Notes under the pieces: model-generated
Databases searched by the model: none
What the model saw: only the letters and a program-made list of their open reading frames with translations
What the model was told of the DNA's origin: nothing
Program-made: the position numbers and the translations under genes
From: an uncultured bacterium
GTDB lineage: Bacteria; Chlamydiota; Chlamydiia; Chlamydiales; SM23-39
Direction: 5' to 3'
Assembly: GCA_963716985.1 (NCBI GenBank)
Contig: OY970323.1
Span: 1,393,942-1,457,941 of the forward strand
Length of the DNA stretch: 64,000 bases
In this document: positions 2,469-64,000 of the stretch, piece by piece
Position numbering within the stretch: the stretch's first letter is position 1
Layout: each line of letters begins with the position of its first letter

Positions 2469-3853
2469 CTGATCCTTACACACAAGTCTAAAATTTAGTA
2501 TACTGTTCCTTTTTTAAAAGGAGCGGTATCATGAAAGAACAATGGATTTATGAACAATTTTCTACTATCGATGTAGGAGATGCCCGCCTGCAAAAGAGGG
2601 CCGTTGACGTTGCTATAGGTTGCGCAGAACATCCTGAAGAGTCCCTGGCAGGACGCTTTGATAAATGGGCAGATCTCCAGGGAACTTACCGCTTTTTTAA
2701 TAATCCTAAAATTACACATCAGGCGCTTCAACAACCCCATTACGATCAAGTCTTAGAAAAGGCGCGCTGGTCGGAACAGCTTGTTCTATTTATTCAAGAT
2801 GGTTCAGAGCTTTTGTTCAATTCCCATCCATGGACACATGGACTTGGACCAACCGCGGACAGTAACGGAAATGGACTCATGTTTCACTCATGCCTGGTCG
2901 CCAAATATCATGAATCTGAAGAAACCGAAATTTTGGGACTTGGTTACCAGGAGGCTTGGGTGCGTCCCGAAGAAAAATCGGCGAGTGATTCGAAAGAATC
3001 TGAGGTGTGGCTGAGGACGTTAGAGAAAATGGGACGTCCCCAGGAGAACTGGGTGAGCGTTGGCGATCGCGCCAATGATATTTATGATTTTTTGAATAAT
3101 GCAAATAGGCTGGGGTGGAAATGTGTAGTGCGGGCGCGACATGATCGCAAAGTCGAGATTGATGGCGAGAAGACACGTCTTTTTTCATGGATTCGTCAAC
3201 AGACAGCCAAGTGTACATCCACGCTGTATGTGAAAGCAAAAGGCGAAGAATTTGGTGGTGAAGTGACACTGGAAATAACTTGGGTCAAAGCGAAATTGTT
3301 TCCTCCAGGAAATGGGGGTTCAGCAGGTGAAGAAGTGACGTATATTCGAGTGTGGTGTCCCGATAGGCCCAGGTTAGAATGGCTATTGGTTACGAATCTT
3401 CCTGTCAACAATCAAGAAGACTCCCTAAGAATCGTCAGAATCTACCGCCGACGCTGGCTTATAGAGGATTATCATAAGGCGGTCAAAACGGGCTTTCGAA
3501 TCGAAGATAATCAGCTTAAACAGGCGAGCCGAATTCTTGCACTATTTGGAATGATTGGGGTGATAGCGACGCAACTTTTATCGATGAGAGAACAATGTCG
3601 GTTGTCTCCGGAAACACCGGTCGAGGAAAAAGTGCCCAAGCCTTGGATTACGCTCATAGAAAGGCATCTGATGGTGAAATTGAAAACGGTGAAAGATTTC
3701 TGGCGTTCTCTGGCTCGTATGGGGGGTTTTATAGGGCGCAAATCAGATGGGGAGCCTGGGTGGCAAACAATTTGGAAGGGTTATAAACGATTGCAAGACA
3801 TGTTAATGGGAGCGCTTTTAGGTTGTGGATGTTGACTTGTGTATAAGGATCAG
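2469..3853 (+). mobile_element. Intact IS4-family (IS50/Tn5-like) insertion sequence with 9-bp target site duplication
   Basis: Ends are CTGATCCTTACACACAAGTC (2469-2488) and the inverted CTGATCCTTATACACAAGTC (3834-3853). The element is flanked by the direct repeat GCTCTGGAC (2460-2468 and 3854-3862). Confidence 0.9.
2531..3835 (+). CDS. IS4-family (Tn5-like) DDE transposase
   Basis: N-terminus is DARLQKRAVDV...FFNNPKIT, as in the Tn5 Tnp DNA-binding domain. DDE blocks are FIQDGSEL, VGDRANDIYDF and YRRRWLIEDYHKAVKTG. Confidence 0.9.
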   Translation: MKEQWIYEQFSTIDVGDARLQKRAVDVAIGCAEHPEESLAGRFDKWADLQGTYRFFNNPKITHQALQQPHYDQVLEKARWSEQLVLFIQDGSELLFNSHPWTHGLGPTADSNGNGLMFHSCLVAKYHESEETEILGLGYQEAWVRPEEKSASDSKESEVWLRTLEKMGRPQENWVSVGDRANDIYDFLNNANRLGWKCVVRARHDRKVEIDGEKTRLFSWIRQQTAKCTSTLYVKAKGEEFGGEVTLEITWVKAKLFPPGNGGSAGEEVTYIRVWCPDRPRLEWLLVTNLPVNNQEDSLRIVRIYRRRWLIEDYHKAVKTGFRIEDNQLKQASRILALFGMIGVIATQLLSMREQCRLSPETPVEEKVPKPWITLIERHLMVKLKTVKDFWRSLARMGGFIGRKSDGEPGWQTIWKGYKRLQDMLMGALLGCGC

Positions 3854-19472: not shown

Positions 19473-20406
<934 letters not shown>

Positions 20407-21017
20407 TTCCTAAAGAAAAAATCATTTGGCCTATCGGAGGCCGCATGCATTCAATATTGACGAAATATTCCGATCTGGAACTTAAGGATCCCTTTAACGT
20501 GCCGCGTTCGATCCCGAGCATTTCCGCACTGATTGGCCAGGTGTTGGACTCAATCGAACAAGAACAAGCATCTTTGGAAATCGATCAACTATTGATCTTT
20601 TACAACAAACCAACATCCGGAGCAAAATTCGAGCCCACATGTTTATCTCTTCTTCCCATCGATGAAAAATGGTTGAATAGCTTCAAAATTGAAAAGTGGC
20701 CTACAAATAAATTTCCAGAAGTGATCGATGATATTGAGTCTACTTTTTCAGCTCTGATTCGTGAACATCTCTTCACCTCCATATTTAAAGCTTGTGTTGA
20801 GTCGTTAACTAGTGAAAACACAAGTAGATTTGCGACTATGCAAGCAGCTGAGCATCATATTGAAGATTTTCTTGAAGAGTTGCATTTGAGGTTTAATTTA
20901 GAGAGGCAAAACAATATTGATGAAGAATTGTTCGATGTGATTTCTGGTTTTGAAGTAATGACATCTAATAGCACAGGGAAATTGCATGATAAATTTGTTG
21001 ACAAAGGTTTGCTATAG
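20407..21017 (+). pseudogene. atpG: F-type ATPase gamma subunit, C-terminal ~200 codons only
   Basis: The C-terminal signature LTSENTSRFATMQAAEHHIEDFLEELHLRFNLERQNNIDEELFDVISGFE matches the gamma pattern ES.aSE..aR..AM..A..N....L.l.yNr.RQ..IT.EL.Ei.sG. Confidence 0.65.
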
Positions 21018-22956: not shown

Positions 22957-24285
22957 GTCTTTCCTCCCATCATTTGCTGTTTCATTGCAGAAAATCCACC
23001 TTTTTGACCTAAGCTTTTGACTAGCTGCTTCATCTTTTTAAATCCTTTGACGAGTCGATTCACTTCATCTAATTTTACTCCGCTGCCCAACGCAATGCGT
23101 CGACGCCGCGCATGAGAAATCTCCACTTTTTCTTGCCTTTCCTCTGGATTCATGGAAAGAATCATCGACTCCATTTTTTGGAACTCTTTATCGGAGACCT
23201 CAAAATCTCCTCCCATAGACGATAGTCCCGGCACCATCTTCAGTAAATTCTTAAACGACCCCATTTTCTTCATCATTCCCATCTGGCGCAAGTAGTCGTC
23301 ATAGGTAAAAGAGGCCTTTCTGAGCTTTTCCTCCATCTTCTTTCCCTCTGCTTCATCAAAATTCTCTTCGGCCTTCCGAACGAGATTGATGATATCTCCC
23401 CATCCCCAAAATTCGATCTGCCATGGAAGAAGGGTGGAAGATTTGCAGGTCTTCTATTTTCTCACCAATGCCTTCAAACTTCAAAGGTTTTTTCGTGACT
23501 TCTCGAATTGTCAAGGCTGCACCGGCCCGGCAGTCGCCATCAAGCATGGTCAAAATACTACCGGTAATCTGCATACGGGCATCGAAAGCAAACGCAGCTT
23601 TAATCGCATCTTGGCCCATGGTCGCATTGGCAACGAAAAGGATCTCGTGGGGCTGAACGATTTCTTTGATCTCTTCGAGCTCCTTCATCAGCTCCTCGTC
23701 CAGATGGAGCCGTCCCGCCGTATCGACGATCAAAACGTCAAATTTTTCCTCCACGGCTTTCTGCATTGCTTTTTTAGCCACTTTGGTGGGATTTTTCTCT
23801 CCTGGGAGGGTAAAAACGGGAATTCCAATGGAAGAGCCCAGCTGGCACAGCTGTTCGATCGCAGCAGGTCTTTGCAAATCGCAAGCTGCCAGAAGGATCT
23901 TTTCTTTCTTCTTCTTCAAAAAATGGGCCAATTTCGCCGCATGCGTCGTCTTTCCGGCGCCTTGAAGCCCGCAGAGCATAATCACGGCCGGTTTTTCTTT
24001 CAGGTCGAGATGCGACTCTTCCTCCCCCATGAGAGAAACGAGCTCATCGTGGACAATTTTGACAAATTGCTGATGGGGCGTTACCGATTTGACAATGCTC
24101 TCTCCGATCGCCTTTTCTTTGATTCTCTGCACAAGGCCGCTGACAATACTATAGCTCACGTCGGCTTCTAAAAGGGCCAAACGAACCTCGCGCACAGCGT
24201 CCTGGATATTTTCTTCCGTCAGCTTTTTCGCTGCCGCCAAACCGCTAAAAAGAGAACGAAATTTTTCTGTTAAATTTTCAAACAT
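22944..24285 (-). pseudogene. ffh: Signal recognition particle protein Ffh, interrupted by a 1-nt frameshift
   Basis: The NG domain ORF (23356..24285; GLQGAGKTT, DTAGR) and M-domain ORF (22944..23336) lie in different frames. Minus-strand atggggAgatatc reads MGRYHQ...stop. Dropping one base gives MGDIINLVRKAEENFDEAEGKKMEEKLRKASFTYDD, running continuously into the M domain. Confidence 0.85.
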
Positions 24286-53674: not shown

Positions 53675-55105
53675 TCATTCTAATAGCTGTCCGAAATCAA
53701 TCACTTTATCAAAATACCTTTTATCCAAAACACTCTCCTCCACCCCATTCACATGTATAAGCACAGGTCTGATAGAGCAGTTTCTGGGGATTTTCAAATT
53801 CTTTATTTTCTTTTCCATTTCCTCAATGATTTTATTGCCGACCGGATTCTTAGAGAACTTAATCTCACATACATATAGATTAAGGAAACGAGTTTGGATC
53901 ATATAGTCAATTTGGCATCCGGCTTGCTTGGTCGTATGATTCTGAAAAAATGGACCTTCCATTACTATCTCTTCTGGAGAGATCCCTAACATCTTCCAGA
54001 GAGTTTTTCTATTATGGACAACAAGATTCTCAAATTGTAATCCCATGATACCTTCCCACCCAGGAAGTTGAGTTATTAAAGTGGAAAAACTTTCTTTCTC
54101 GATTTTAGAATGATTAGGAGCTATATATTTCAAATAAAAACGCAAATAATTATCACTTAATCGATAACGGCTCAATTTTCCTTCTTTTCCACTTTTCAGA
54201 TCCCATGTAAAGTCCCTTTTTACAAAGCCTGCCTTTACCAATTCATCTAAATGTTTGCTGAATATCCCCCCCAAACTTTTCCCTAATTCATCGCAAATTT
54301 GAACAAGCTCTTTTGAACCATTGGCAAGACAGAGGACAATTTCTTTATGACTAGCTTTACTACGAGAAAAAAGATCAGAGAATATCTCATCGAACTCTCT
54401 CACAAGCAATCCTCCTTTAGTAAAACAAAGATCTTGGATATTTCGTTCAGCGGGAAGATTTGGTTTGATTTGTTCCAAGTAAAGCGGGATACCTCCTATT
54501 ACAGATAAAAGTTTGAATTTTTCATAAGGAGTAATACGTTTTTCTTTTGGATGCCAGAAAGCATTGCAGACCCCTAATGGAAGTTCTTCAAGCACAAGAT
54601 CAAGGGTAATTCTTCCCAGAAATCCTGTATTGCTTAGGATATTCTTTTCAATCCATGAAGATACTGATCCACAAAGCGCAATAATTAGGTACGGATTTTT
54701 GCTAAAATACATATCCCAAGCAGTTTTCAAGTGTCCTAAAAAATGAGGATCTTTTCCCCCCATCCATGAAATTTCATCGAATACGATAAGGATTCGACCT
54801 TTTTTAGTTTCCTTGGAGAGATACCAAAAGAGATCGCTCCAATCATCTGGCTTAACGCCACGAATACCAGCTTTTTCAAGCTGACGTGCAAAATCATTAC
54901 GCTGAGTTTGAGCTGTTGTCTTGCGAACCGGAGGATTTCCAGAAAAAAAGTAGCTTTTTATCTCTTTCCCAAATTCTACAAGAAGTCTGCTTTTTCCAAT
55001 ACGTCTTCTACCCCTGACAACAATAAGGCTGGCGCTTTTCTTGTCTAAAAGCCCCTCAAGCCTTTTCATTTCAGCTTCACGTCCTATAAACTGAGACGGT
55101 TTCAT
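53675..55105 (-). CDS. AAA ATPase of the Arch_ATPase / DUF234 type
   Basis: FIGREAEMKRLEGLL...LIVVRGRRRIGKSRLL (Walker A), ILIVFDEISWM (Walker B), and a C-terminal DUF234-like region (IDYMIQTRFLNLYVCEIKFSKNPV). Confidence 0.75.
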   Translation of the reverse strand: MKPSQFIGREAEMKRLEGLLDKKSASLIVVRGRRRIGKSRLLVEFGKEIKSYFFSGNPPVRKTTAQTQRNDFARQLEKAGIRGVKPDDWSDLFWYLSKETKKGRILIVFDEISWMGGKDPHFLGHLKTAWDMYFSKNPYLIIALCGSVSSWIEKNILSNTGFLGRITLDLVLEELPLGVCNAFWHPKEKRITPYEKFKLLSVIGGIPLYLEQIKPNLPAERNIQDLCFTKGGLLVREFDEIFSDLFSRSKASHKEIVLCLANGSKELVQICDELGKSLGGIFSKHLDELVKAGFVKRDFTWDLKSGKEGKLSRYRLSDNYLRFYLKYIAPNHSKIEKESFSTLITQLPGWEGIMGLQFENLVVHNRKTLWKMLGISPEEIVMEGPFFQNHTTKQAGCQIDYMIQTRFLNLYVCEIKFSKNPVGNKIIEEMEKKIKNLKIPRNCSIRPVLIHVNGVEESVLDKRYFDKVIDFGQLLE

Positions 55106-55417: not shown

Positions 55418-55497
55418 GTGAGTATCATCGAGTCGGAGGGGTCCGGTTTGGACCCCGTCCGCTCACAGAACCGCACGTACGGGTCCGTATACGGCTC
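55418..55497 (-). ncRNA. Group II intron 3' remnant (domain V plus domain VI-like helix)
   Basis: Minus strand GAGCCGUAUACGGACCCGUACGUGCGGUUC (55468-55497) aligns with the domain V consensus GAGCCGUAU...ACGUACGGUUC, including the AGC triad and a 2-nt bulge. A GUGAG...CUCAC helix with an A-rich asymmetric loop follows (55418-55466). No RT ORF and no 5' GUGYG were found. Confidence 0.5.
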
Positions 55498-55537
55498 TTC
55501 ATGTTAACTTCACACGTTTATCTATCCCAAACCATCG

Positions 55538-55721
55538 TACGCGTTCACGGGGGGGGGGGGGGGGGGTGAGGGGTCTATGGGAAATAATGAAATCGGAGGA
55601 CGCACGGCTGCGAAACAACGAGCTAAACAACAAAAAACTACCGGTTTTTCCCCGCTTTTTAGTGAACCAGATGCCTTTAATCTCACATTTCTCATAGACC
55701 CCCCATCCCCGTGAACGCGTA
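55538..55721. repeat. 184-bp inverted-repeat element containing a G18 homopolymer (copies B and C of the GTACGCGTTCACGGGG family)
   Basis: The left arm is GTACGCGTTCACGG, then a G run (55549-55566, 18 G), then TGAGGGGTCTATGGGAAA. The right arm 55692-55721, reverse-complemented, reads GTACGCGTTCACGGGGATGGGGGGTCTATG. Confidence 0.75.
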
Positions 55722-55772
55722 CCATGTTTTTACAATTCTTTTCTATCAAATGACGCTATGAAACCTGTCCAT

Positions 55773-57827
55773 TCATGGACGGGATGCAATGGCGTCATTT
55801 GACAAGGTAAAGAAATGCTCAAAAGGCATCTGTGCTATAAGTTCTCTTTCCGTCCTTGGAAAGGCTTGGAAAAAGAATGCGCTTGCTACGAATATAAATT
55901 TTTTCCGCGCCCGAGTGAGCGCCACATTAAATCGTCGATACTCCTTCAAAAAAGAACTATGGATCGTATCTTTATCAGAAACTGTAGCAGAGAAAATGAC
56001 AATATCGAATTCCAATCCTTGCATTCGCTCAACCGTATCAACCCTGGGCAGCGTTAATGAAAAAGGCAAAGCCTCTTTCAAAGCAGAGAGAATCGTATTA
56101 TTTTGCAATCGATGAGGAGAAATAATGCCAATTTGCTCATAGGAAACGGAGTAATCGTCAATCAGACGTTTCACGGCTTTCGCTATCCACTCAGCTTCCT
56201 CCGGAGAAGACTGCTGCGATCCCAAATGATCTAGCTGAACGACGACCATGGATTTAGATGGATCTAGATAGTCATCTAAAAGATCTCCAAATAACGGGTG
56301 GTGAGGTAGCTCAAATTTCTGATCTTTTTCAGCCACAACAGATTGTAGTTCGCCGTTGTACCACTGCTCACTTGCAAACTTACAAATATCCGCATTCATG
56401 CGATAGGTTTCATTCAAGCGCAAGTGGTTTTGAGCGCCGTATCGGGAAATCAATTCCTGTAATATGGAGCGAGGAGGAAGGAAGGTGTTCTCATAGTTTC
56501 CCTTCAACACGGGAGACAATTGCTGCGTATCTCCATAAAACAACGCTTTTCCCTTTCCAAAAATGAAACTTTGCAATGCGTAGGGGGTGAGGACTTGTGA
56601 CGATTCATCAAAAACAACCCAATCAAATAGTTGTGGAAAATTTTTATCCTCCAATAATTGATAAACCCCATACCCTGTAGCCCCAAGGATAAGACAAGAG
56701 CGGTCGTGAAGCGCTTCAGAACCATACATCTGGCCAATCCCCAAACTCGAGAATTGAGTCTCATCGAAGCGTCCATATTTCCATAAGGAAACACCGGAAA
56801 CGTTTGCCTCCGGAAGTGTTTTTGCGACTTTTCTGAGAATTTGATCGATCGCATGATGCGTCTGCGCCGTGACCAAAATCTTGATCGGGCGATTGAAAAA
56901 TTTTGCATGCGCTACTAGCGCAATAAGCGTCCATACGAGTAAGTGGGTCTTCCCGGTTCCCGGCGGTCCTTCAATGAATCCAATTTTTTCCCGAAAGGGC
57001 AGCGCTAAGGCTTGTTTTTGAAGGTGGTTCAATCCTGCAGCTAGAGCTCTTGATTGATACCACTGTTCTATCCAATGGGTTGCGTCGGATGCAAAACTTT
57101 TTGCATGCCCCAGAAGCATTTGAATCACTTCAGGGCAAAATTTTGGATCTTTTAATAGGTTTAAAACCCTGGCTATTTTCGGCGCATTCCAATCTGTTGC
57201 ATCCTCATCTAAGGCGTATAATTGATTTCTGCTAAAGCTCACCTTTTGAGATACAGGGCGCACAGAAAGAAGCCCCTGTTCCGGCGAATAGGTGTCGAGT
57301 ACTACAGAAAACCCGTCTTGAATTTGATCACTTCCAACCGGCGATAATTTTAAAAAATCTCCGACTCTAAATTTGGAAACTGTCGACTTTGCACCTATAG
57401 AAAATGAGAGGCCTTCTTTTTGCGCCGCGCCGCCAAGGAAACTGATAGGACCTATTGCTCGGAACTGTTTTACACGGTCCGGCAAGGGGTTTTTTTGAAA
57501 TGCGCAAATCTCGAAACCGCGGCACTCCGTTTCTCGGTGGTGCATCGCAAGATAAGCATGAATCAAAGGAACCGAGTGTGCTTTGTTGCCTTCAAACGAC
57601 ACCACACGCTGACTTTTCACGTTAGACAGACACCAGTTCCAAATGTGTCTACAAAGATCAAATGAAGCATCCGAAAAGGACTCCTTATGATACAAGCTGA
57701 GGGGTTGGATCGGGGAGGGGGAAAGACCCAAGCACGCCCCAACTTGCATCGCTGTGATACGTCCGTCAATGGGCCAAAGAAAATGGGTTTCCAACACAGT
57801 CTGGATAGCGGTCCAGGAAACATGCAT
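55773..57827 (-). CDS. C-terminal half of an IS-split giant gene: Upf1/Dna2-like SF1 helicase (AAA_11/AAA_12 type)
   Basis: GPPGTGKTH (Walker A), VVFDESSQV (motif II), YGDTQQLSPV, LNETYRMNADI, VERMQGLEFDIVIFS, and FNVALTRARKKF. The frame is continuous with 59520..62801 once the IS is removed. Confidence 0.85.
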   Translation of the reverse strand: MHVSWTAIQTVLETHFLWPIDGRITAMQVGACLGLSPSPIQPLSLYHKESFSDASFDLCRHIWNWCLSNVKSQRVVSFEGNKAHSVPLIHAYLAMHHRETECRGFEICAFQKNPLPDRVKQFRAIGPISFLGGAAQKEGLSFSIGAKSTVSKFRVGDFLKLSPVGSDQIQDGFSVVLDTYSPEQGLLSVRPVSQKVSFSRNQLYALDEDATDWNAPKIARVLNLLKDPKFCPEVIQMLLGHAKSFASDATHWIEQWYQSRALAAGLNHLQKQALALPFREKIGFIEGPPGTGKTHLLVWTLIALVAHAKFFNRPIKILVTAQTHHAIDQILRKVAKTLPEANVSGVSLWKYGRFDETQFSSLGIGQMYGSEALHDRSCLILGATGYGVYQLLEDKNFPQLFDWVVFDESSQVLTPYALQSFIFGKGKALFYGDTQQLSPVLKGNYENTFLPPRSILQELISRYGAQNHLRLNETYRMNADICKFASEQWYNGELQSVVAEKDQKFELPHHPLFGDLLDDYLDPSKSMVVVQLDHLGSQQSSPEEAEWIAKAVKRLIDDYSVSYEQIGIISPHRLQNNTILSALKEALPFSLTLPRVDTVERMQGLEFDIVIFSATVSDKDTIHSSFLKEYRRFNVALTRARKKFIFVASAFFFQAFPRTERELIAQMPFEHFFTLSNDAIASRP

Positions 57828-57842
57828 AGCCCATAATGATTT

Positions 57843-59519
57843 GGGTGCACCTGTTTTAGAACGACTCCATATTTCATAGATAAAAATAAGAAATTCAAAA
57901 AAATTTTAGTGTAATAAAAATTAGTTTTTTCGTAGCCTATCTGCATTAATCGAAAAATTAGGCAAAAAATGTCTACTCTTTTCCGAACCTCAGCACAGGT
58001 TTTTTTAGCATTGACTCAACACATGGGTTCACGAGAAACTATGAGCATGAGACATAGTTCAATAGAAAATATCATATCAACCGACATTCGAGAGCTTTCA
58101 CGCAACATTTTCGAAGAGCATATAGACTTACGTAATCTCGGAGAGGTAGGAGACAGTATCGTGGGTTCTGATGGGGTAGTGCGTACCCACAAAAGAATTC
58201 TCGAGAGAGTACTTGTGTGTCTGTTTGGCAATGTGACCATTAGAAGACTGGGATATGGAGCACGTGGACATAACAGTTTATTTCCTAAGGATGCCATCCT
58301 TAATCTCCCTATCGAGTCTTATTCTCATGGGATTAGAAAGCTTGTAGCTCAAGAAGCCGCGAGGGGTCCTTTTAATGAGGTCATGGAGGTAGTAAAACGG
58401 ATAACAGGTGTTGCTCTGCCCAAAAAAACGATAGAGCTGTTGACTCGTAAAGCAGCTGTGGATTTTGACACATTTTATGAGCAAAAACTAACCATGAAGC
58501 AACCTTCAGTCAAACAACTTCCCCTGCTTATTTTAACGACAGATGGCAAGGGTATTGTAATGCGCCATGAAGATTTGCGAGAAGCGACTCGAAAAAAAGC
58601 GGAACAAGGCAAGCACAAGTTGAATAAAAGAATGTCAAAGGGAGAAAAGGCCAACGCGAAAAGAATGGCAACAGTTGCATCTGTGTATAGCATAGATAGA
58701 TTTCTGCGTACTGCAGAACAAATCGTTATGGAGATGAAAGCTTCAGAAGTACCAATTGTTCGTCCTCGTCCTTCAGAGAAAAGAGTTTGGGCAAGTATTG
58801 AGCACACATCTGACAAAGTCACAGCCGATATCTTTGAAGAAGCATTGCATAGGGATCCTAAACAAGAGCAAGAATGGGTTTGTTTATTGGATGGAGATCC
58901 AAGGCAACTAAAAAGAATACGATCAACCGCGAAGAAAAAGGGAATAAAAATTACGATTGTAATGGATGTGATTCATGTCATTGAATATCTATGGAAAGCA
59001 GCACGTGTATTTCATGAGGAAACTAGCCCGGAAGTCGAGACATGGGTCTCGGAGCGTTTGCTGGCTGTTTTGCGGGGAAATCCTGGGCAAGTAGCTGCCG
59101 GAATACGGAGATCAGCAACATTGCGAAAAATTCCCGCGGCACAGAGAGCTCCGATAGAGAAATGTGCTGGGTACTTACTTAAAAACAAACCTTATTTACA
59201 GTATCACCGCTATCTTCAAAAAGGGTTTCCGATAGCTACAGGAATTATAGAAGGAGCTTGTCGCCATTTAATCAAAGATAGAATGGATATAACGGGAGCT
59301 CGTTGGAGTTTGCAAGGAGCGGAGGCAATAGTGAGATTGCGTTCGCTCAGATCTAGTGGAGATTTTGAGGACTACTGGAGATTTCATGAGGAACAAGAAT
59401 TTGTGCGTAATCATAAGTCACTCTATGCAGATCCGAGAATTCTTGATAAAGTACAATAAATTACTGGTGAAAATTTCTAGCTCTCTATGAAAAGTCGTCG
59501 TTCTAAAACAGGTGCACCC
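57843..59519 (+). mobile_element. ISKra4-like insertion sequence (1677 bp) with 23-bp perfect terminal inverted repeats and 9-bp target duplication
   Basis: IR GGGTGCACCTGTTTTAGAACGAC at 57843-57865 has its reverse complement at 59497-59519. The direct repeat TAATGATTT lies at 57834-57842 and 59520-59528. Confidence 0.9.
57969..59459 (+). CDS. ISKra4-family-like transposase
   Basis: A 496-aa ORF fills the IS. The C-terminal block GIIEGACRHLIKDRMDITGARWSLQGAEAIVRLRSLRSSGDFEDYW is characteristic of ISKra4-type transposases. The family assignment is from memory. Confidence 0.7.
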   Translation: MSTLFRTSAQVFLALTQHMGSRETMSMRHSSIENIISTDIRELSRNIFEEHIDLRNLGEVGDSIVGSDGVVRTHKRILERVLVCLFGNVTIRRLGYGARGHNSLFPKDAILNLPIESYSHGIRKLVAQEAARGPFNEVMEVVKRITGVALPKKTIELLTRKAAVDFDTFYEQKLTMKQPSVKQLPLLILTTDGKGIVMRHEDLREATRKKAEQGKHKLNKRMSKGEKANAKRMATVASVYSIDRFLRTAEQIVMEMKASEVPIVRPRPSEKRVWASIEHTSDKVTADIFEEALHRDPKQEQEWVCLLDGDPRQLKRIRSTAKKKGIKITIVMDVIHVIEYLWKAARVFHEETSPEVETWVSERLLAVLRGNPGQVAAGIRRSATLRKIPAAQRAPIEKCAGYLLKNKPYLQYHRYLQKGFPIATGIIEGACRHLIKDRMDITGARWSLQGAEAIVRLRSLRSSGDFEDYWRFHEEQEFVRNHKSLYADPRILDKVQ

Positions 59520-62500
59520 TAATGATTTCAATACCGTCGACTGAAAAGTTCTTTGAAAAAGATGCCAGTCTATTGATTCATAAACGAGAAAGTGTGGATT
59601 TTTTCCCCGGTTAACAGATTGAATCCACTCTTTTCGCAATTGGCTTGCCATTTCCCTTTGAAATGTCTCCTCATTTGAAAAATCTCGTGAACGAATACAA
59701 ACATCATTGATCGACACCCCATTTTCCCAGCACTGCCACCGGACGCTCTCGCGATCGTAGTGGATGAAGTACCACTGTTTGGAATTTTTTGGGAAATCAT
59801 TGGATTCGATATTCCGTGAAACAATCATCCGATTGTTCGGAGTTGTTGCGTTATTAAAAAGAGTCTCTTGGTAGCAGTAAGAAAAATAACAACACGATGT
59901 ACAGGAAAATTCCATAGAATAGTCTTGAACGGCTGAACTCCTCCCGGAATCTGTTTTCCACTGAGCCAATAACCGGGGCATCCAAGCTCTATAAGGAGCC
60001 AATATAAACGAGGCTTTTTCAAATAGCTTTTCGCGGTCCATAGGACGGTAAACAAGCCCACCCAGAGCGGAGACCCTTACCGGAAGCAAAAACGTTTCTC
60101 CATTCAAAAGGCGATCTAGCAGATAGGCGTAAAAGGCGATCCTCCATTTTTGTGCATAACTGATTGATTGAGAAAATTTGATATCCCAAACCTCTAAGCA
60201 AATATGAGATCCTTGATGTTGAATATAGATTAAATCCGGAGTTCCGCTTATCGAACCTTCGACCTTAAGTTTTGCCTGCGCCAGAAAAAGAGGCTTTTTG
60301 TCCAATACAACTGTTCGAATGGCCTCTTGCCATGTCAATTCTGCTGTTTCAAAACAGACGTTCGCTTGATTCTGCAAGGCCTCTATCACTTCCTTTTTGA
60401 AAGCGATCCCTTGTTGCCGTCGAGATTGGATTTCTTGATCAATCCCGGAGAAGCGAGGGTGAGGCTCTATTTGGTAGTCAAGTTGCTGCAATCGAGCCCA
60501 TCTTGGACACAGATTCTGAGTCACATAACCTTGAACCTGCGTCGCAGTCAATGAGAGAGGCAAAATCTGTCCATCCGAAGAAATTTCGGGAAAAGAAAGT
60601 ATGCCCCATGCATTTTTTTCATTTTCTAGAGACCAGGGTTCCCCTTTCAGATCGATGCGATGGGTCGCTATTTTTTTTTCCTCATCCACAAGGGGGGGAC
60701 AGGGAAGCCACTTAGATTCTGAAACGTACCTCTGAAAGTGTTTTAAAACTCTAGGGTCGTGGAGACGAGAGCCGATCTCTTTCCGTTGATGCTCTTCCGG
60801 CAGCCAATACAGCCAACTATTCCAAGAAAATCCCCCTTTCAGCAAAGGCAAATGAGAGGATATCCACTCCTGAAATTGCTCAACCGTATGAGGAATTTTT
60901 AGGAATGCAAAGGGAATCCATTCGTTACATTCAAGACCCATCTCATCGAAATTCATTGATAATCCCTCTATTTTAGAGGCAAACTGCTTTTCGATAAGGT
61001 GGTAGAGGATATAATTTGCGACTGATCCTAAAAATGTTTCATAGCGATACGTTCCATTTCCTAGTCGATGAACCCGAATACCATTTGGCTCTTCAAGAGA
61101 TCTAGCTATTTTCTCTCTCTCCTTCTCCAGGAGCTGCCCGGTGCGACTTAATAGACCTCGGGGTGTAAATTTGTCTAAAAGAATCGCACCCATTTTTTGC
61201 GCCACCTCAAAAGGAGTTGAAGGTCCAAATCCCATCCAAACCAATTCCTTGCTTGCGGGCTCATTCGACTCTTTAACCAAAACCTCAAGAGCGGCCCTCT
61301 TCTCTTCAATGCGAAGAACTCTTAACACCTTTCCCGTTAATCGAATGAGATCGCCTACCTTTAATTGCCTCACCACCGACAGGGGTAAAACAGCAATTTT
61401 TTCATATTCCAAAATCACATCATACTCTTCGTCAGTCGGTGGAAAATTGCTCCATATTTGCTTCCTTTTCAATGACGAAAAATAACGCCATCCTCCACCG
61501 CATATCCCGGGCTGCTTTGCCGGTTTGAGCCAATTGTTGGCAAGCATATGATGAAAAATGCAGGACAAATCCTGCGATTTTTCTTTGAAAAGCAGGTTTA
61601 ACGAATCGTTTGATAATGCTTTTTTCGCGTAGAGGCAAGATAAAATTTGCTGAAATAGCACGCTGTAATTCTCTGAGCTGCGGCATTTTTCTACCCGATG
61701 TTCTTTTGCGAGTTCAAAAAAAGCTAAAAAGCGAACGAGTTGCATCCCTGCGCTTTGTCCATAGCAAATTCCCCAGAAGTTCATGTATTGCTGGCGACGG
61801 TTGCCGCGCCCAATCCTTTGTAAAAACCCCATTGTAGAGGGGGGCGGTCCCATCAGCACTACGCCATCTACATCCCCGATATCAATCCCTAACTCTAGGG
61901 TGCTTGTTGCAATGCAAACTCCCATTTTTCCATCTCTAAACGAAGCCTCGATGAACTTTCTCTCTTGAGTAGAAAAATTAGAGTAATGTAAAAAAACTTT
62001 CTGAGAAAAAACACCTTCTTGATTCAGGATATTGTATAATTGCTCGCATTTTTTTCGACTATTCGCAAACACTAAAAGTTTTTTACAACCCGATCGGCGA
62101 TATAAGTCATCGAAAAGCAGCGTCAGCTCTCGCTCTTCATCTTCAATGTGCACCCAGCACGGTTGCAGCGTCCTGGCAACAGACTGCTTATAGTAAAAGG
62201 AGGTCTTGCTAAGATTAAAAAACCGCATGATATCTTCTGCATTGTCAATCGTAGCAGACAATGCAACGGTTTGTAGCGGTCCGATAGACTGCATTGCAAG
62301 CCGATGATGCAGATACGATAACTGACGCCCTCGGTCATCATGAAGAAACACGTGCACTTCATCGATAATCATCATATGCACATGCTTGAGAAAATATTTA
62401 TTATCCTGATTCGGGCTCCCCAGCATCACATCTAATGATTCGGGAGTCATGATGAGAAGATGAGGCTTTGCATCCAGAAGGTGTTTTCCATCGCCCGTTC

Positions 62501-62801
62501 GAATGCCTGATTTCAAGCCTAGCTTCTTATAGATAGGCTTAATCCTTCGATTCATATCCAAAGCTAAAGCGCGGGTGGGAACGATGTAGATGATGGTAAA
62601 ATGATCAGGATAGATCATCAGCTTTTCAGTTGCCGGAGCAAGGACAGCCTCTGTTTTCCCGGCTCCCGTGCCTGCCTGCAGTATGACATCCTCTCCATTA
62701 AGAATAGGTTGAATCAACTGTTTTTGCGCAGCTGTGAGAGTGGAAAAACCGGAAAAAAAAGCGCGATACGTGTTAGGAAGCAGTTCTAATGGAGAAGTCA
62801 C
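59418..62801 (-). CDS. N-terminal part of an IS-split giant gene: Lhr-like DEAD/DEAH SF2 helicase fused to a Cas4/AddB-type Fe-S PD-(D/E)XK nuclease (native sequence 59520..62801; last 33 codons are IS-derived)
   Basis: AGTGAGKT (motif I), DEVH (II), SAT (III), QRIGRGNRR (VI). The nuclease module has LCPRW...TPDLIY...LEVWDIKFS...QKWRIAFYAYLL...CTSCCYFSYC (CX2CX5C). The GTG start overlaps the upstream stop (GTGA). Confidence 0.85.
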   Translation of the reverse strand: MTSPLELLPNTYRAFFSGFSTLTAAQKQLIQPILNGEDVILQAGTGAGKTEAVLAPATEKLMIYPDHFTIIYIVPTRALALDMNRRIKPIYKKLGLKSGIRTGDGKHLLDAKPHLLIMTPESLDVMLGSPNQDNKYFLKHVHMMIIDEVHVFLHDDRGRQLSYLHHRLAMQSIGPLQTVALSATIDNAEDIMRFFNLSKTSFYYKQSVARTLQPCWVHIEDEERELTLLFDDLYRRSGCKKLLVFANSRKKCEQLYNILNQEGVFSQKVFLHYSNFSTQERKFIEASFRDGKMGVCIATSTLELGIDIGDVDGVVLMGPPPSTMGFLQRIGRGNRRQQYMNFWGICYGQSAGMQLVRFLAFFELAKEHRVEKCRSSENYSVLFQQILSCLYAKKALSNDSLNLLFKEKSQDLSCIFHHMLANNWLKPAKQPGICGGGWRYFSSLKRKQIWSNFPPTDEEYDVILEYEKIAVLPLSVVRQLKVGDLIRLTGKVLRVLRIEEKRAALEVLVKESNEPASKELVWMGFGPSTPFEVAQKMGAILLDKFTPRGLLSRTGQLLEKEREKIARSLEEPNGIRVHRLGNGTYRYETFLGSVANYILYHLIEKQFASKIEGLSMNFDEMGLECNEWIPFAFLKIPHTVEQFQEWISSHLPLLKGGFSWNSWLYWLPEEHQRKEIGSRLHDPRVLKHFQRYVSESKWLPCPPLVDEEKKIATHRIDLKGEPWSLENEKNAWGILSFPEISSDGQILPLSLTATQVQGYVTQNLCPRWARLQQLDYQIEPHPRFSGIDQEIQSRRQQGIAFKKEVIEALQNQANVCFETAELTWQEAIRTVVLDKKPLFLAQAKLKVEGSISGTPDLIYIQHQGSHICLEVWDIKFSQSISYAQKWRIAFYAYLLDRLLNGETFLLPVRVSALGGLVYRPMDREKLFEKASFILAPYRAWMPRLLAQWKTDSGRSSAVQDYSMEFSCTSCCYFSYCYQETLFNNATTPNNRMIVSRNIESNDFPKNSKQWYFIHYDRESVRWQCWENGVSINDVCIRSRDFSNEETFQREMASQLRKEWIQSVNRGKNPHFLVYESIDWHLFQRTFQSTVLKSLGCTCFRTTTFHRELEIFTSNLLYFIKNSRICIE

Positions 62802-63952
62802 ACTGAAGTATCCAACAGAACATGTTGGGTTTCCCTATCGAGTTTATTCACTAATGCCTTTAACTTAAATCGAGTCTCTTGAGCTTCAAGTTTACCTAGC
62901 AAAGATTGCAAGCTCGCCTTTACTTGTAAAGGAAGGTCGATTTGATAAGCTTGAGAATAAAGTTGCATGAGGCGGTCGAGCAAAGATTCCCATCCATGAG
63001 AAGAAAAGTCTTGAAGGCGCAGAATATGTAAATCCCGCCAAGCCTCTGCATAATTCTTGGGAAAATTGTCATCGTACGTCTCATGATTAGCTTTATCAAA
63101 AAAATCGTCCGTAAACGCAAATACGGGAAATACAGAACTTTTGGTTTGAAAAAACTGATCTAAAAGATGATAACTTTTTACTCGATGGCCCAATCGTCCC
63201 TGTGCAATCGATTCCGCTTCATCAAAAAACAGCAGCAATCCCTTGTACCCCATTTCTTTTAGGACCCTTCCTAAGGATTGAACCATTTGAAAATAGGAGT
63301 CATTCCCACGGCAAATCAGAGATTGCTCCCGATAGCCTTCGACTTCCCGATATTTGCAGACATTCCTGAGATGCGCGACAGGTATGTCATATCCCATCAA
63401 CGCTTTGTCGAGCCAATACCCATACTCCTTTGGCCGATAAGCTTGATGCTTCTTCAATGAACTCTCCTTTGGAGTGAGCCGCTTGTTCTTACAAAGCATT
63501 GCAGTGAGTGTTATCCTAAAGCGATGAGGCATAGTGCTTAAAAGCTCCGGGCAATCCTTGTGAGCGCAATTTCTCCACGCATTCGTAAATTTTTGACCAT
63601 CCGGCAAAGAAAGTCTTTCCATGATTGACCGATAAACAATAGAAAATCGATGGAAAGGAACTTCTCTTAAATCTAATTGAACGACACTCGTAGCATAACC
63701 TTGAGAAAGGGCTAATTGATTCAAATAAGTTAACGTGTGTGATTTTCCCTGCCCATAAGATCCGCAAACACACAAGTGATCCGACTTTCCTTTTTCTAGT
63801 GCCTTTAGACCTTTAGAAAAAACATTTTCGATTCGATCCTTTTCCACGGTCAGGTAATTCACTGCTACCGGATCAAATAATCCGTCCCGTAGTCGTTCAA
63901 CAGCGCGCCTTAGAGAAAATCGATCCACGTTAAGCATCCCAAACCGGTTCAA
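62798..63952 (-). CDS. BrxD-like P-loop ATPase (DUF2791 / BREX ATP-binding domain type)
   Basis: RRAVERLRDGLFDPVAVNYLTVEKDRIE...HLCVCGSYGQGKSHTL (Walker A) and GLLLFFDEAES (Walker B). The layout matches the DUF2791 family. The start is TTG 63952 or ATG 63937. Confidence 0.7.
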   Translation of the reverse strand: MNRFGMLNVDRFSLRRAVERLRDGLFDPVAVNYLTVEKDRIENVFSKGLKALEKGKSDHLCVCGSYGQGKSHTLTYLNQLALSQGYATSVVQLDLREVPFHRFSIVYRSIMERLSLPDGQKFTNAWRNCAHKDCPELLSTMPHRFRITLTAMLCKNKRLTPKESSLKKHQAYRPKEYGYWLDKALMGYDIPVAHLRNVCKYREVEGYREQSLICRGNDSYFQMVQSLGRVLKEMGYKGLLLFFDEAESIAQGRLGHRVKSYHLLDQFFQTKSSVFPVFAFTDDFFDKANHETYDDNFPKNYAEAWRDLHILRLQDFSSHGWESLLDRLMQLYSQAYQIDLPLQVKASLQSLLGKLEAQETRFKLKALVNKLDRETQHVLLDTSV

Positions 63953-64000
63953 GTTGACGTGTTTTTTCTATTTCCGCTTCTTTATGGCTTTCCAACAGGT
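63930..64000 (-). CDS. 3' end of an upstream gene running off the window (unknown function)
   Basis: The frame ...LLESHKEAEIEKTRQLEPVWDA* is open to the window edge. Its TAA (63930-63932) overlaps the ATG at 63937 (ATGCTTAA), suggesting translational coupling. Only 23 codons are visible. Confidence 0.35.
   Translation of the reverse strand, partial: LLESHKEAEIEKTRQLEPVWDA

What the first reader, a model, noticed from the sequence alone, without database searches (positions are those of the whole stretch)
55773..62801. A single ~1,780-codon gene is split, in frame, by an IS insertion
The 1127-aa ORF (59418..62801) and the 684-aa ORF (55773..57827) are separated only by the IS at 57843..59519. 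Both copies of the 9-bp duplication TAATGATTT sit in the same codon phase (L-S-K read on the minus strand). Deleting the IS and one duplicate joins ...DWHLFQRTFQSTVLKSL to WAMHVSWTAIQTVLETHF... with no stop. That leaves 5343 nt, which is 1780 codons plus a stop. The last 33 codons of the 1127-aa ORF (GCTCFRTTTF...RICIE) are IS sequence. Two annotated 'genes' are therefore one ancestral giant gene. Perfect IRs, a perfect TSD and two still-open halves suggest the insertion is recent.
Basis: seen in the sequence. Interest (0 to 1): 0.85.

Follow-up and report, generated by a model that had tools for sequence, protein, structure and literature searches.

The report
Transposon splits a giant helicase-nuclease gene

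Summary
An ISKra4-family insertion sequence lies at 57843..59519 (1677 bp, perfect 23-bp inverted repeats, 9-bp duplication TAATGATTT). It sits in one minus-strand gene. Removing 57843..59528 restores a 5343-nt ORF of 1780 codons with no stop.

- More than 50 uninterrupted orthologues of 1765-1800 aa exist, and they align straight through the junction.
- A public contig from a sister sample carries the IS-free site. It has zero substitutions over 5.3 kb and one copy of the 9-mer.
- dN/dS is 0.14-0.20 in both halves.

That sister lineage has the same gene cut elsewhere, at codon ~372, by an IS66-family element. The first gene of its operon is cut by an IS1634-family element. No fully intact allele was found.

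The gene fuses a BrxHI/Lhr-like SF2 helicase, a Cas4/Dna2-like Fe-S nuclease and an SF1B helicase. It is the last gene of a four-gene cassette (unknown 280-aa protein, two BrxD-like ATPases, giant protein). That cassette was found in about 60 of the 80 related loci kept from other bacterial species, spanning at least seven phyla. It is not canonical BREX or Shango.

Verdict: a real, recent, ordinary IS knock-out in an IS-rich symbiont. The cassette is the more interesting by-product.

The parts
57843..59519 (+). ISKra4-family insertion sequence, 1677 bp, antisense to the interrupted gene
   Evidence: Perfect 23-bp IRs, 9-bp TSD and a single transposase ORF. Other copies of identical length sit at other sites in sister assemblies (L006, L008, L009).
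57843..57865 (+). Left terminal inverted repeat GGGTGCACCTGTTTTAGAACGAC
59497..59519 (-). Right terminal inverted repeat, the perfect complement of the left one
57969..59459 (+). Transposase, 496 aa
   Evidence: NCBIfam NF033572 (ISKra4 family transposase), 326 bits against a cut-off of 205, E 3.7e-97. No Pfam hit.
57834..57842 (.). Target-site duplication copy 1, TAATGATTT (K-S-L on the minus strand)
59520..59528 (.). Target-site duplication copy 2, TAATGATTT
   Evidence: The IS-free allele L005 has one copy.
59520..62801 (-). Codons 1-1094 of the ancestral 1780-codon gene (GTG start at 62801)
   Evidence: 100% identical to sister-lineage DNA.
59418..59519 (-). 33 IS-encoded codons plus a stop, which terminate the upstream fragment (the 1127-aa ORF)
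55773..57833 (-). Codons 1095-1780 plus the stop of the ancestral gene. The annotated 684-aa ORF starts at the conserved internal Met1097 (ATG at 57825..57827).
60921..62750 (-). SF2 (Lhr/Ski2-like, BrxHI/SngC-like) helicase module, residues 18-627. Motifs: GTGAGKTE at 62649..62675, DEVH at 62352..62363, QRIGRGNRR at 61794..61820.
   Evidence: Pfam DEAD 2.1e-38 and Helicase_C 7.4e-17. PADLOC BrxHI 7.3e-92 and SngC 2.8e-73. Motifs are invariant in alignment A2.
59847..60539 (-). Cas4/Dna2/AddB-like PD-(D/E)XK nuclease with a four-cysteine cluster. Residues: C765; PDL at 60231..60239; EVWDIK at 60177..60194; CTSCCYFSYC at 59874..59903.
   Evidence: C765, D856, D873, K875, C967, C970 and C976 are invariant in 23 sequences. 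Foldseek matches: MGME1 6.6e-5, Dna2 8.6e-5, Cas4 1.3e-4. PDDEXK_1 4.7e-6 in one homologue.
59520..59819 (-). First part (residues ~995-1094) of the alpha/beta domain that the IS cuts
   Evidence: AlphaFold model m1042d826cf53. Model residues 370-510 form a confidently predicted beta-beta-beta-alpha-beta-alpha-beta-alpha domain (pLDDT 80-92). The IS site is model residue 470. The RNase-H-like label is my reading of the topology, not a database hit.
57711..57833 (-). Second part (residues 1095-~1135) of the cut alpha/beta domain
55863..57032 (-). SF1B (Upf1/Dna2/IGHMBP2-like) helicase module, residues 1362-1751. Motifs: GPPGTGKT at 56946..56969, DESSQ at 56595..56609, TVERMQG at 56016..56036.
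   Evidence: Pfam AAA_11 1.7e-19 and AAA_12 3.3e-34. NCBIfam IGHMBP2-family 6.4e-40. PADLOC MkoA 8.3e-46. Motifs are invariant.
61684..61691 (-). Empty target GAAAAATG. In the sister lineage an IS66-family element sits here (codon ~372), flanked by this 8-mer on both sides.
   Evidence: Left junction in L010-L013 and right junction in L005. Transposase matches NF033517 at 336 bits.
62798..63952 (-). Third gene of the cassette: the second, divergent BrxD-like AAA+ ATPase. Public gene calls give 379 aa from 63937. It overlaps the giant gene's start by 4 nt.
   Evidence: Pfam BrxC_BrxD 2.8e-25. PADLOC BrxD 5e-27. Conserved directly upstream of the giant gene in orthologous loci.

Best explanation
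One ancestral gene of 1780 codons was cut very recently by transposition of a 1677-bp ISKra4-family insertion sequence into an AT-rich 9-mer at codon 1092-1094.

The gene encodes a single-chain enzyme with these parts, in order: an Lhr/BrxHI-like SF2 helicase, a Cas4/Dna2-like iron-sulfur nuclease, a small alpha/beta domain, a beta-barrel, and an Upf1/Dna2-like SF1B helicase. It is the last gene of a conserved four-gene cassette: a 280-aa protein of unknown fold, two BrxD-like AAA+ ATPases, then the giant protein.

The insertion leaves two fragments:
- An upstream fragment of 1094 native residues (SF2 helicase plus nuclease) with a 33-residue IS-encoded tail.
- An orphan downstream fragment holding half of the alpha/beta domain, the barrel and the SF1B helicase. 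It lacks its own recognisable promoter or ribosome-binding site.

The enzyme is therefore most likely inactivated.

The event is one of several IS and MITE hits in an IS-rich chlamydial lineage. A sister lineage with no nucleotide substitutions in the DNA compared has the ISKra4 site empty, but carries an IS66-family element at codon ~372 of the same gene and an IS1634-family element in the first gene of the cassette. The simplest reading is ongoing, essentially neutral decay of a dispensable accessory cassette.

Shown: the insertion, its anatomy, the single-gene ancestry, the recency, and the second and third hits. Inferred: loss of function, neutrality, and a role for the cassette as a DNA-targeting defence or DNA-processing machine in which the ATPases load or license the helicase-nuclease.
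For: - Anatomy and clean excision.
- Transposase family.
- AT-rich 9-bp targets at three further copies (AAATTAATT, (T/A)AATCATTT...AAAACATTT).
- Uninterrupted orthologues and a conserved junction.
- IS-free allele identical at every base over 5.3 kb, apart from one homopolymer length.
- Independent assembly of the IS-bearing allele from run ERR11523656.
- Purifying selection in both halves (dN/dS 0.14-0.20 against three orthologues).
- All family-invariant catalytic residues retained.
- IS66 hit in the sister lineage with an 8-bp duplication.
- IS1634-family hit in cassette gene 1.
- Domain assignments.
- Cassette conservation across phyla.
- No sigma-70-like promoter at either junction.
- IS-driven pseudogenisation is a documented feature of environmental chlamydiae: PMC13229535, and PMC9723776 by its abstract.
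Against: - No expression or activity data exist. The upstream fragment keeps a complete helicase and nuclease and could retain or gain activity. The downstream half could be transcribed from within the IS (a weak TTGAAT-N16/17-TGAAAT/GAAATA lies near the IS end).
- No fully intact allele of this species was found (best full-length hit 87% identical). The intact state is therefore reconstructed from two complementary alleles.
- Whether cassette gene 1 is also broken in the window's own genome is unknown. It lies beyond position 64000, and the 2.07-Mb record could not be read.
- The defence role of the cassette is untested. The neighbourhoods of distant loci show few known defence genes: of 10 flanking proteins, one matched a MADS component (mad2), one a TnsB-type transposase model and one Pycsar-cyclase models.
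Confidence: 0.92

Rival explanations
1. Adaptive knock-out. The intact cassette is costly or self-damaging in this intracellular lineage, for example a nuclease-helicase attacking the host's own IS- and plasmid-rich DNA. Selection would then repeatedly favour cells in which an IS has destroyed it.
For: Two different IS families hit the same 5.3-kb gene in two lineages that show no substitutions in 9.6 kb of compared DNA. A third family hit gene 1 of the same operon. No intact allele was found in five datasets.
Against: Structural change is extremely frequent here. Within this 64-kb window the two lineages also differ by a multi-kilobase deletion in an ATP synthase operon next to a MITE, and by another ISKra4 copy. 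By my rough estimate, two hits in one long dispensable gene are then not improbable by chance. If gene 1 was broken first, later hits are neutral by default. No fitness data exist.
Confidence: 0.2
2. Functional split. The two fragments are both expressed and work together as a two-subunit enzyme, as separate polypeptides do in AddAB or RecBCD. The insertion would then be tolerated rather than inactivating.
For: Both halves are open. Each contains complete catalytic modules. An in-frame Met codon lies 2 codons after the junction.
Against: That Met is a conserved internal residue of the intact protein, not a new start. No Shine-Dalgarno-like sequence or consensus promoter precedes it. The cut falls inside a confidently predicted compact domain rather than a linker. 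The openness of both halves is explained by the age of the insertion, with zero substitutions against the IS-free allele. None of the relatives in the top 120 hits shows a split at this position.
Confidence: 0.06
3. Assembly artefact. A multi-copy IS was wrongly placed inside an intact gene when the genome was assembled.
For: The IS is multi-copy, and repeats break or mislead assemblies. One sister contig (L011) does continue from the IS66 element into unrelated sequence.
Against: The insertion is flanked by a perfect 9-bp duplication of a sequence that occurs once in the IS-free allele. A chimera would not create this. An independent short-read assembly of another run gives the same IS-to-gene junction at 100% identity over 3971 bp. 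The 1127-aa product, including its IS-encoded tail, is present in two sources.
Confidence: 0.02

Closest known systems
ISKra4-family insertion sequences (p-MULT 4 Mutator-like DDE transposases; PMC3942029)
   Same: Single transposase ORF matching the NCBIfam ISKra4 equivalog above its cut-off, terminal inverted repeats, and 9-bp target duplications.
   Different: Several described ISKra4-group elements insert 13-17 bp upstream of sigma-A promoters (PMC3942029). This copy sits inside a coding region with no promoter-like site nearby. The common feature of its four targets is an AT-rich 9-mer. Its exact 23-bp end was not found in 185,579 species-representative genomes or in the JGI metagenomes.
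IS-driven pseudogenisation in IS-rich environmental chlamydiae (Endochlamydia hydrae, PMC13229535; Rhabdochlamydia, PMC9723776)
   Same: A chlamydial genome with several active IS families disrupting genes and causing rearrangements. Here ISKra4, IS66, IS1634, IS4 and a MITE are seen in or next to one 64-kb window.
   Different: Both the filled and the empty site are captured in otherwise identical DNA, and the same gene is hit independently in the sister lineage.
BrxD-BrxHI dyad of type 2 BREX (Pgl) (PMC12839542)
   Same: A BrxD-like ORC/Cdc6-type AAA+ ATPase is encoded immediately upstream of an Lhr/Ski2-like SF2 helicase. PADLOC gives BrxHI 7.3e-92 and BrxD 1e-43 / 5e-27.
   Different: No PglX methyltransferase, PglZ, BrxC or PglW lies in the cassette. 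There are two ATPase paralogues instead of one. The helicase carries about 1150 extra residues (nuclease plus SF1B helicase). The BrxD match is far below NCBIfam's equivalog cut-off (92 against 350 bits).
Shango (SngA TerB-like protein, SngB ATPase, SngC DEAD/DEAH helicase; bioRxiv 10.1101/2022.11.11.516204 and 10.1101/2022.05.11.491447)
   Same: Same gene order: small protein, ATPase, helicase. PADLOC gives SngB 3e-32 to 7e-35 for the first ATPase and SngC 2.8e-73 for the N-terminal third of the giant protein.
   Different: The first gene has no detectable TerB domain by Pfam, by PADLOC or by fold search of a good model. There is an extra ATPase, and the helicase is fused to a nuclease and a second helicase.
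Dna2, and the two-motor end-processing nuclease-helicases AddAB/RecBCD
   Same: The C-terminal ~1000 residues follow the Dna2 order: Fe-S PD-(D/E)XK nuclease, beta-barrel, SF1B helicase. Foldseek matches Dna2 5ean at 8.6e-5, Cas4 at 1.3e-4 and AddB at 6e-3. From what is known of these helicase families, Lhr/Ski2-like SF2 motors move 3'-to-5' and Dna2/Upf1-like SF1B motors 5'-to-3', the opposite-polarity pairing used by RecBCD.
   Different: Here both motors and the nuclease are in one polypeptide and are partnered with AAA+ ATPases. Polarity and substrate are inferred from family membership only.

Membership tests
ISKra4 family IS | Transposase matches the family model above its curated cut-off | tested here: met
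   NF033572, 326 bits against a cut-off of 205.
ISKra4 family IS | Terminal inverted repeats bounding a single-ORF element | tested here: met
   Perfect 23-bp IRs on a 1677-bp element with one 496-aa ORF.
ISKra4 family IS | Direct target duplication of constant length at independent copies | tested here: met
   9 bp in the window and in L006; 8 of 9 in L008. That 9 bp is typical of the ISKra4 group is from my memory of ISfinder and was not checked here.
ISKra4 family IS | Insertion 13-17 bp upstream of a sigma-A promoter (a property of some members only, PMC3942029) | tested here: not met
   No promoter-like site near either junction. This is not a defining feature of the whole family.
Type 2 BREX | BrxD ATPase adjacent to BrxHI helicase | tested here: inconclusive
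   PADLOC and Pfam hits are significant, but the NCBIfam BrxD score of 92 bits is far below the equivalog cut-off of 350. These are related proteins, not equivalogs.
Type 2 BREX | Core genes PglX (methyltransferase), PglZ, BrxC/PglY and PglW in the same locus | tested here: not met
   None is present in the window, or within 10 kb of the gene in three orthologous contigs.
Shango | SngA: a TerB-domain protein as first gene | tested here: not met
   The 280-aa first gene has no Pfam hit at E<=1 and no PADLOC hit. Its 333 homologues carry no Pfam domain. Its AlphaFold model (pLDDT 82.9) has no PDB match better than E 0.21.
Shango | SngB-like ATPase and SngC-like helicase | tested here: met
   SngB 3.4e-32 / 7.3e-35; SngC 2.8e-73 over residues 17-621.
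Shango | Anti-phage activity | not testable with these tools
Cas4/Dna2/AddB-type Fe-S PD-(D/E)XK nuclease | Catalytic D...(D/E)xK motif | tested here: met
   D856, D873 and K875 (PDL...EVWDIK) are invariant in 23 sequences from several phyla.
Cas4/Dna2/AddB-type Fe-S PD-(D/E)XK nuclease | Four cysteines: one N-terminal plus C-x2-C-x5-C | tested here: met
   C765, C967, C970 and C976 are invariant. Cluster binding itself is not testable here.
Cas4/Dna2/AddB-type Fe-S PD-(D/E)XK nuclease | Fold similarity | tested here: met
   Foldseek: MGME1 6.6e-5, Dna2 8.6e-5, Cas4 1.3e-4. The overall model has only moderate confidence (pLDDT 68.7). Pfam support is weak.
SF1B Upf1/Dna2-like helicase | AAA_11/AAA_12 core with Walker A, Walker B and motifs V/VI | tested here: met
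   Pfam 1.7e-19 and 3.3e-34. [20 protein letters not shown] and NVALTRAR are conserved.

The most novel reading that the evidence does not exclude
The four-gene cassette (unknown 280-aa protein, two BrxD-like ATPases, single-chain SF2-helicase / Fe-S-nuclease / SF1B-helicase) may be an undescribed, widely transferred defence or DNA-surveillance system. It would be related to, but distinct from, Shango and the BREX type 2 BrxD-BrxHI module. Its repeated destruction by three IS families in one chlamydial species could reflect selection against keeping it in an IS-laden intracellular genome.
Probability: 0.2. Interest if true: 0.6.

Novelty: new member of a known kind. Interest (0 to 1): 0.35.

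Why it matters
For annotation, the two public proteins of 1127 and 684 aa should be one pseudogenised 1780-aa gene, and 33 residues of the longer one are IS sequence.

For biology, the locus is a clean, dated snapshot of IS-driven gene loss in an environmental chlamydia. Filled and empty sites occur in otherwise identical DNA. The same gene is hit twice independently, and its operon a third time.

The by-product may matter more than the insertion. The disrupted gene defines a cassette found in 369 relatives among species-representative genomes from Chlamydiota to Desulfobacterota. None of the four protein-family libraries I searched has a model for the whole cassette, and none of the papers I searched describes it. 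It combines two helicases, expected from their families to have opposite polarity, with a Dna2-like nuclease in one chain, and would be a reasonable candidate for experimental testing.

Tried and rejected
- Promoter-targeted insertion, as described for some ISKra4 elements: no sigma-70-like site near the junctions.
- Source organism and further IS copies, by exact search for the 23-bp IS end: 0 hits in GTDB species representatives and in JGI metagenomes.
- More IS-free alleles, by a 38-mer across the empty site in JGI metagenomes: 0 hits.
- TerB/Shango membership of the first cassette gene: negative by Pfam, PADLOC, homologue annotations and PDB fold search.
- Profile search of the middle 730 residues against PDB sequences: only a spurious zinc-ribbon match.
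- Pfam on 11 homologues of that region: weak Cas4 and PDDEXK_1 hits only, and nothing for the domain the IS cuts.
- Defence-island context in distant loci: of 10 flanking proteins, one matched a MADS component, one a TnsB-type transposase model and one Pycsar-cyclase models. This is not convincing.
- The hydra symbiont paper was checked as a possible source of the window and rejected: different GC content and IS families.


Full report
**1. The observation.**
The ORF table shows a 1127-aa ORF (59418..62801, minus strand) and a 684-aa ORF (55773..57827, minus strand). A 496-aa plus-strand ORF lies between them.

The sequence between the two halves has perfect 23-bp inverted ends, GGGTGCACCTGTTTTAGAACGAC, at 57843..57865 and 59497..59519. 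These are the only two occurrences in the window, against 0 expected by chance. It is flanked by the only two copies of TAATGATTT, at 57834..57842 and 59520..59528.

Removing 57843..59528 (1686 nt) yields a 5343-nt ORF of 1780 codons plus a stop, with no internal stop. The junction reads ...FQSTVLKSL|WAMHVSWTAIQ.... The last 33 codons of the 1127-aa ORF are IS sequence.

The duplicated 9-mer reads K-S-L rather than L-S-K. 'In frame' is an automatic consequence of excision, not evidence in itself.

**2. The element.**
The 496-aa protein matches the NCBIfam ISKra4-family transposase equivalog at 326 bits, against a cut-off of 205. It has no Pfam hit.

Other copies of exactly 1677 bp occur in sister assemblies at different sites, with these targets:
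- L006: AAATTAATT.
- L008: (T/A)AATCATTT.
- L009: a flank ending ...AAAACATTT.

The element therefore duplicates 9 bp and prefers AT-rich 9-mers. Some ISKra4-group elements target the region upstream of sigma-A promoters (PMC3942029). No promoter-like site lies near this insertion. The exact 23-bp end is absent from 185,579 species-representative genomes and from the JGI metagenomes.

**3. One gene, not two.**
A search with the rejoined protein found 754 relatives. Fifty-eight of the best hits are single proteins of 1738-1848 aa covering 98-100% of the query at 57-87% identity. Those that carry a name come from Chlamydiota (Rhabdochlamydia, Waddliaceae) or Legionellales. A further large group of ~1900-aa proteins at ~36% identity comes from Gemmatimonadota, Latescibacterota and deltaproteobacterial lineages.

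Alignments run straight through the insertion point, and VLKSL|WAMH is conserved in close orthologues. The ATG that starts the 684-aa ORF is therefore a conserved internal methionine.

All residues invariant across 23 family members are retained, including every helicase and nuclease motif. dN/dS against three intact orthologues is 0.14-0.20 and is the same in both halves.

**4. The IS-free allele.**
Exact-sequence look-up showed that both halves are deposited as separate proteins on a 2,067,739-bp NCBI record. It also showed that the cluster of the 684-aa protein contains a 1417-aa member.

The contig of that member is L005 (Logan assembly of run ERR11523654). It is identical to the in-silico-excised window over 5.3 kb, with 0 substitutions and a single AAATCATTA at the site. 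The only difference is the length of a C homopolymer in the intergenic region.

The IS-bearing allele is independently assembled from run ERR11523656 at 100% identity over 3971 bp. Across L005, L010 and L006, 9.6 kb of sister-lineage DNA shows no substitution against the window. The insertion is very recent.

**5. The same gene is broken again elsewhere.**
L005 does not start at the gene's start. Its first 43 bases are the right end of an IS66-family element.

Contigs L010-L013 come from four datasets: ERZ25039519, ERZ25039466, ERR11596056 and ERR11523654. They are 100% identical to the window from 64000 down to 61684 and then run into the left end of that element (GTAACCGTCTAATCTACCC...). The 8-mer GAAAAATG is present on both sides and once in the window, at 61684..61691. 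The transposase matches NF033517 at 336 bits.

Thus one lineage has ISKra4 at codon 1094 with the IS66 site empty. The other has IS66 at codon ~372 with the ISKra4 site empty. In L010, the first gene of the operon is additionally split by a ~2-kb element with 26-nt inverted repeats and an IS1634-family transposase.

No fully intact allele of this species is in the protein collection; the best full-length hit is 87% identical.

**6. The gene.**
- Residues 18-627: an Lhr/Ski2-like SF2 helicase (Pfam DEAD and Helicase_C; PADLOC BrxHI 7.3e-92 and SngC 2.8e-73).
- Residues ~755-985: an invariant D...D-x-K motif and four invariant cysteines (C765, C-x2-C-x5-C).
- Residues 1362-1751: an SF1B helicase (AAA_11/AAA_12, IGHMBP2-family, MkoA-like).

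An AlphaFold model of residues 625-1355 has a mean pLDDT of 68.7, with the domains themselves at 80-92. Foldseek matches it to MGME1, Dna2, Cas4 and AddB nucleases and to the Upf1/IGHMBP2 barrel region.

Between the nuclease and the barrel lies a compact alpha/beta domain (model residues 370-510). I read its topology as RNase-H-like, but no database confirmed that. The IS sits at model residue 470, inside this domain.

The C-terminal ~1000 residues thus follow the Dna2 order, preceded by an SF2 helicase. From what is known of these families, that pairing gives two motors of opposite polarity plus one nuclease in a single chain. This is inference.

**7. The cassette.**
In three orthologous contigs the giant gene is preceded by three genes: a ~280-aa protein, a ~420-aa BrxD-like ATPase (PADLOC BrxD 1e-43, SngB ~1e-32 to 1e-35), and a ~380-aa second, more divergent BrxD-like ATPase. 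The outer flanks differ between the contigs.

The window holds the third gene (62798..63952) and then ends.

A scan of species-representative genomes found 369 relatives of the giant protein. Of the 80 loci kept, 50 have all three partner genes in the same order directly upstream of the giant gene. About ten more have some or all of them where contig ends, a gap or a downstream position intervene. These loci come from Chlamydiota, Legionellales, Acidobacteriota, Latescibacterota, Desulfobacterota, SAR324 and Nitrospinota.

The 280-aa protein has 333 homologues, all 'hypothetical' and without Pfam domains. Its good AlphaFold model (pLDDT 82.9) has no PDB fold match.

The cassette is therefore related to the BrxD-BrxHI dyad of type 2 BREX (PMC12839542) and to Shango (TerB-like protein, ATPase, helicase; bioRxiv 10.1101/2022.11.11.516204). 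It lacks the BREX core genes and a detectable TerB domain, and it adds an ATPase, a nuclease and a second helicase.

The full-text paper searches I ran found no description of it. A defence role is plausible but unproven. Some loci sit next to an integrase, an ImmA-like regulator or a Tn7-type transposase. However, of 10 flanking proteins tested in distant loci, only one matched a known defence component, one matched a TnsB-type transposase model and one matched Pycsar-cyclase models.

**8. Consequence and interpretation.**
The upstream fragment (SF2 helicase plus nuclease, with a 33-residue foreign tail) can still be made from the operon promoter. The downstream fragment has no consensus promoter or Shine-Dalgarno sequence ahead of its conserved internal ATG. 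The cut also falls within a folded domain. Loss of function is therefore the likely outcome, though it is inferred.

Two or three independent hits on one cassette could suggest selection for loss. But structural change in this lineage is so frequent that chance is sufficient. Within this same 64-kb window the lineages also differ by a deletion of most of an ATP synthase operon beside a MITE and by another ISKra4 copy, all with no point substitutions. A prior break in gene 1 would also make later hits neutral.

IS-driven pseudogenisation is well documented in environmental chlamydiae (PMC13229535).

**9. Verdict.**
As a phenomenon it is an ordinary IS knock-out, though an unusually well-resolved one. 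The novelty lies in a new ISKra4-family member and in the uncharacterised cassette it disrupts.

Noticed in passing
window 19479..21017, junction at 20305..20406: The ORF at 19479..20342 is only the N-terminal ~277 residues of an F/N-type ATP synthase beta subunit. It abuts the C-terminal part of the gamma subunit (20352..21017). The junction is a ~101-bp MITE-like element with terminal repeats CTAGTGCTCTGyCA...TGACAGAGCACTAG. A sister assembly (L006) is 100% identical up to 20308. It then continues with intact beta, epsilon, an ISKra4 copy, atpI/AtpR and subunits a, c, b and alpha. The window strain has therefore lost several kilobases of this operon.
   Followed up: partly
window 61684..61691; loci L005, L010-L013: In four other datasets an IS66-family element with an 8-bp duplication GAAAAATG interrupts the same giant gene at codon ~372. 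The window has the empty site.
   Followed up: yes
L010 4900..6894 (outside the window, upstream of position 64000): The first gene of the cassette (the 280-aa protein) is split after residue ~56 by a ~2-kb element with 26-nt inverted repeats and a 575-aa IS1634-family transposase. Whether the window's genome has this insertion is unknown.
   Followed up: partly
window 55427..55499 (minus strand): Rfam group II intron model (domains V-VI, RF00029) scores 48.4 bits, above its gathering score of 40. The match lies in the 670-bp spacer between the giant gene and the next gene. No intron-encoded protein is present, so it is probably an ORF-less remnant.
   Followed up: no
window 55529..55730: A run of 19 C (minus strand, about 55549..55567) is 9 nt longer than in the IS-free contig L005. 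It is embedded in a long inverted repeat: 55529..55560 pairs with 55699..55730 at 88%. It is either slippage-prone DNA or a sequencing or assembly difference.
   Followed up: no
window 53675..55105 (minus strand): The 476-aa ATPase_2 plus HTH protein directly downstream of the giant gene matches the PADLOC candidate-defence family PDC-S27 over its full length (2.7e-82). Its 90% cluster has 78 members, mostly chlamydial.
   Followed up: no
window 2531..3835 (plus strand): IS4-family transposase (NF033590, 269 bits). Its 90% cluster has 26 members on many short contigs, so the element is probably multi-copy.
   Followed up: no
window 23356..24285 (minus strand): The FtsY/SRP-receptor ORF is 309 aa here. 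Members of the same 90% cluster in sister assemblies are 409-446 aa. Possible causes are an N-terminal truncation, a frameshift or a different start. Not examined.
   Followed up: no
L016, L017 (Legionellales), L020 (Acidobacteria): Complete or contig-truncated cassettes at 57-68% identity to the chlamydial protein occur in Legionellales and an Acidobacteria assembly. This is far closer than the ~36% seen in other phyla and suggests horizontal transfer, or possibly binning errors.
   Followed up: no
L011 4208..4309: A copy of the same MITE is inserted inside the right end of the IS66 element in one assembly but not in another (L005). The MITE is therefore also currently mobile.
   Followed up: partly
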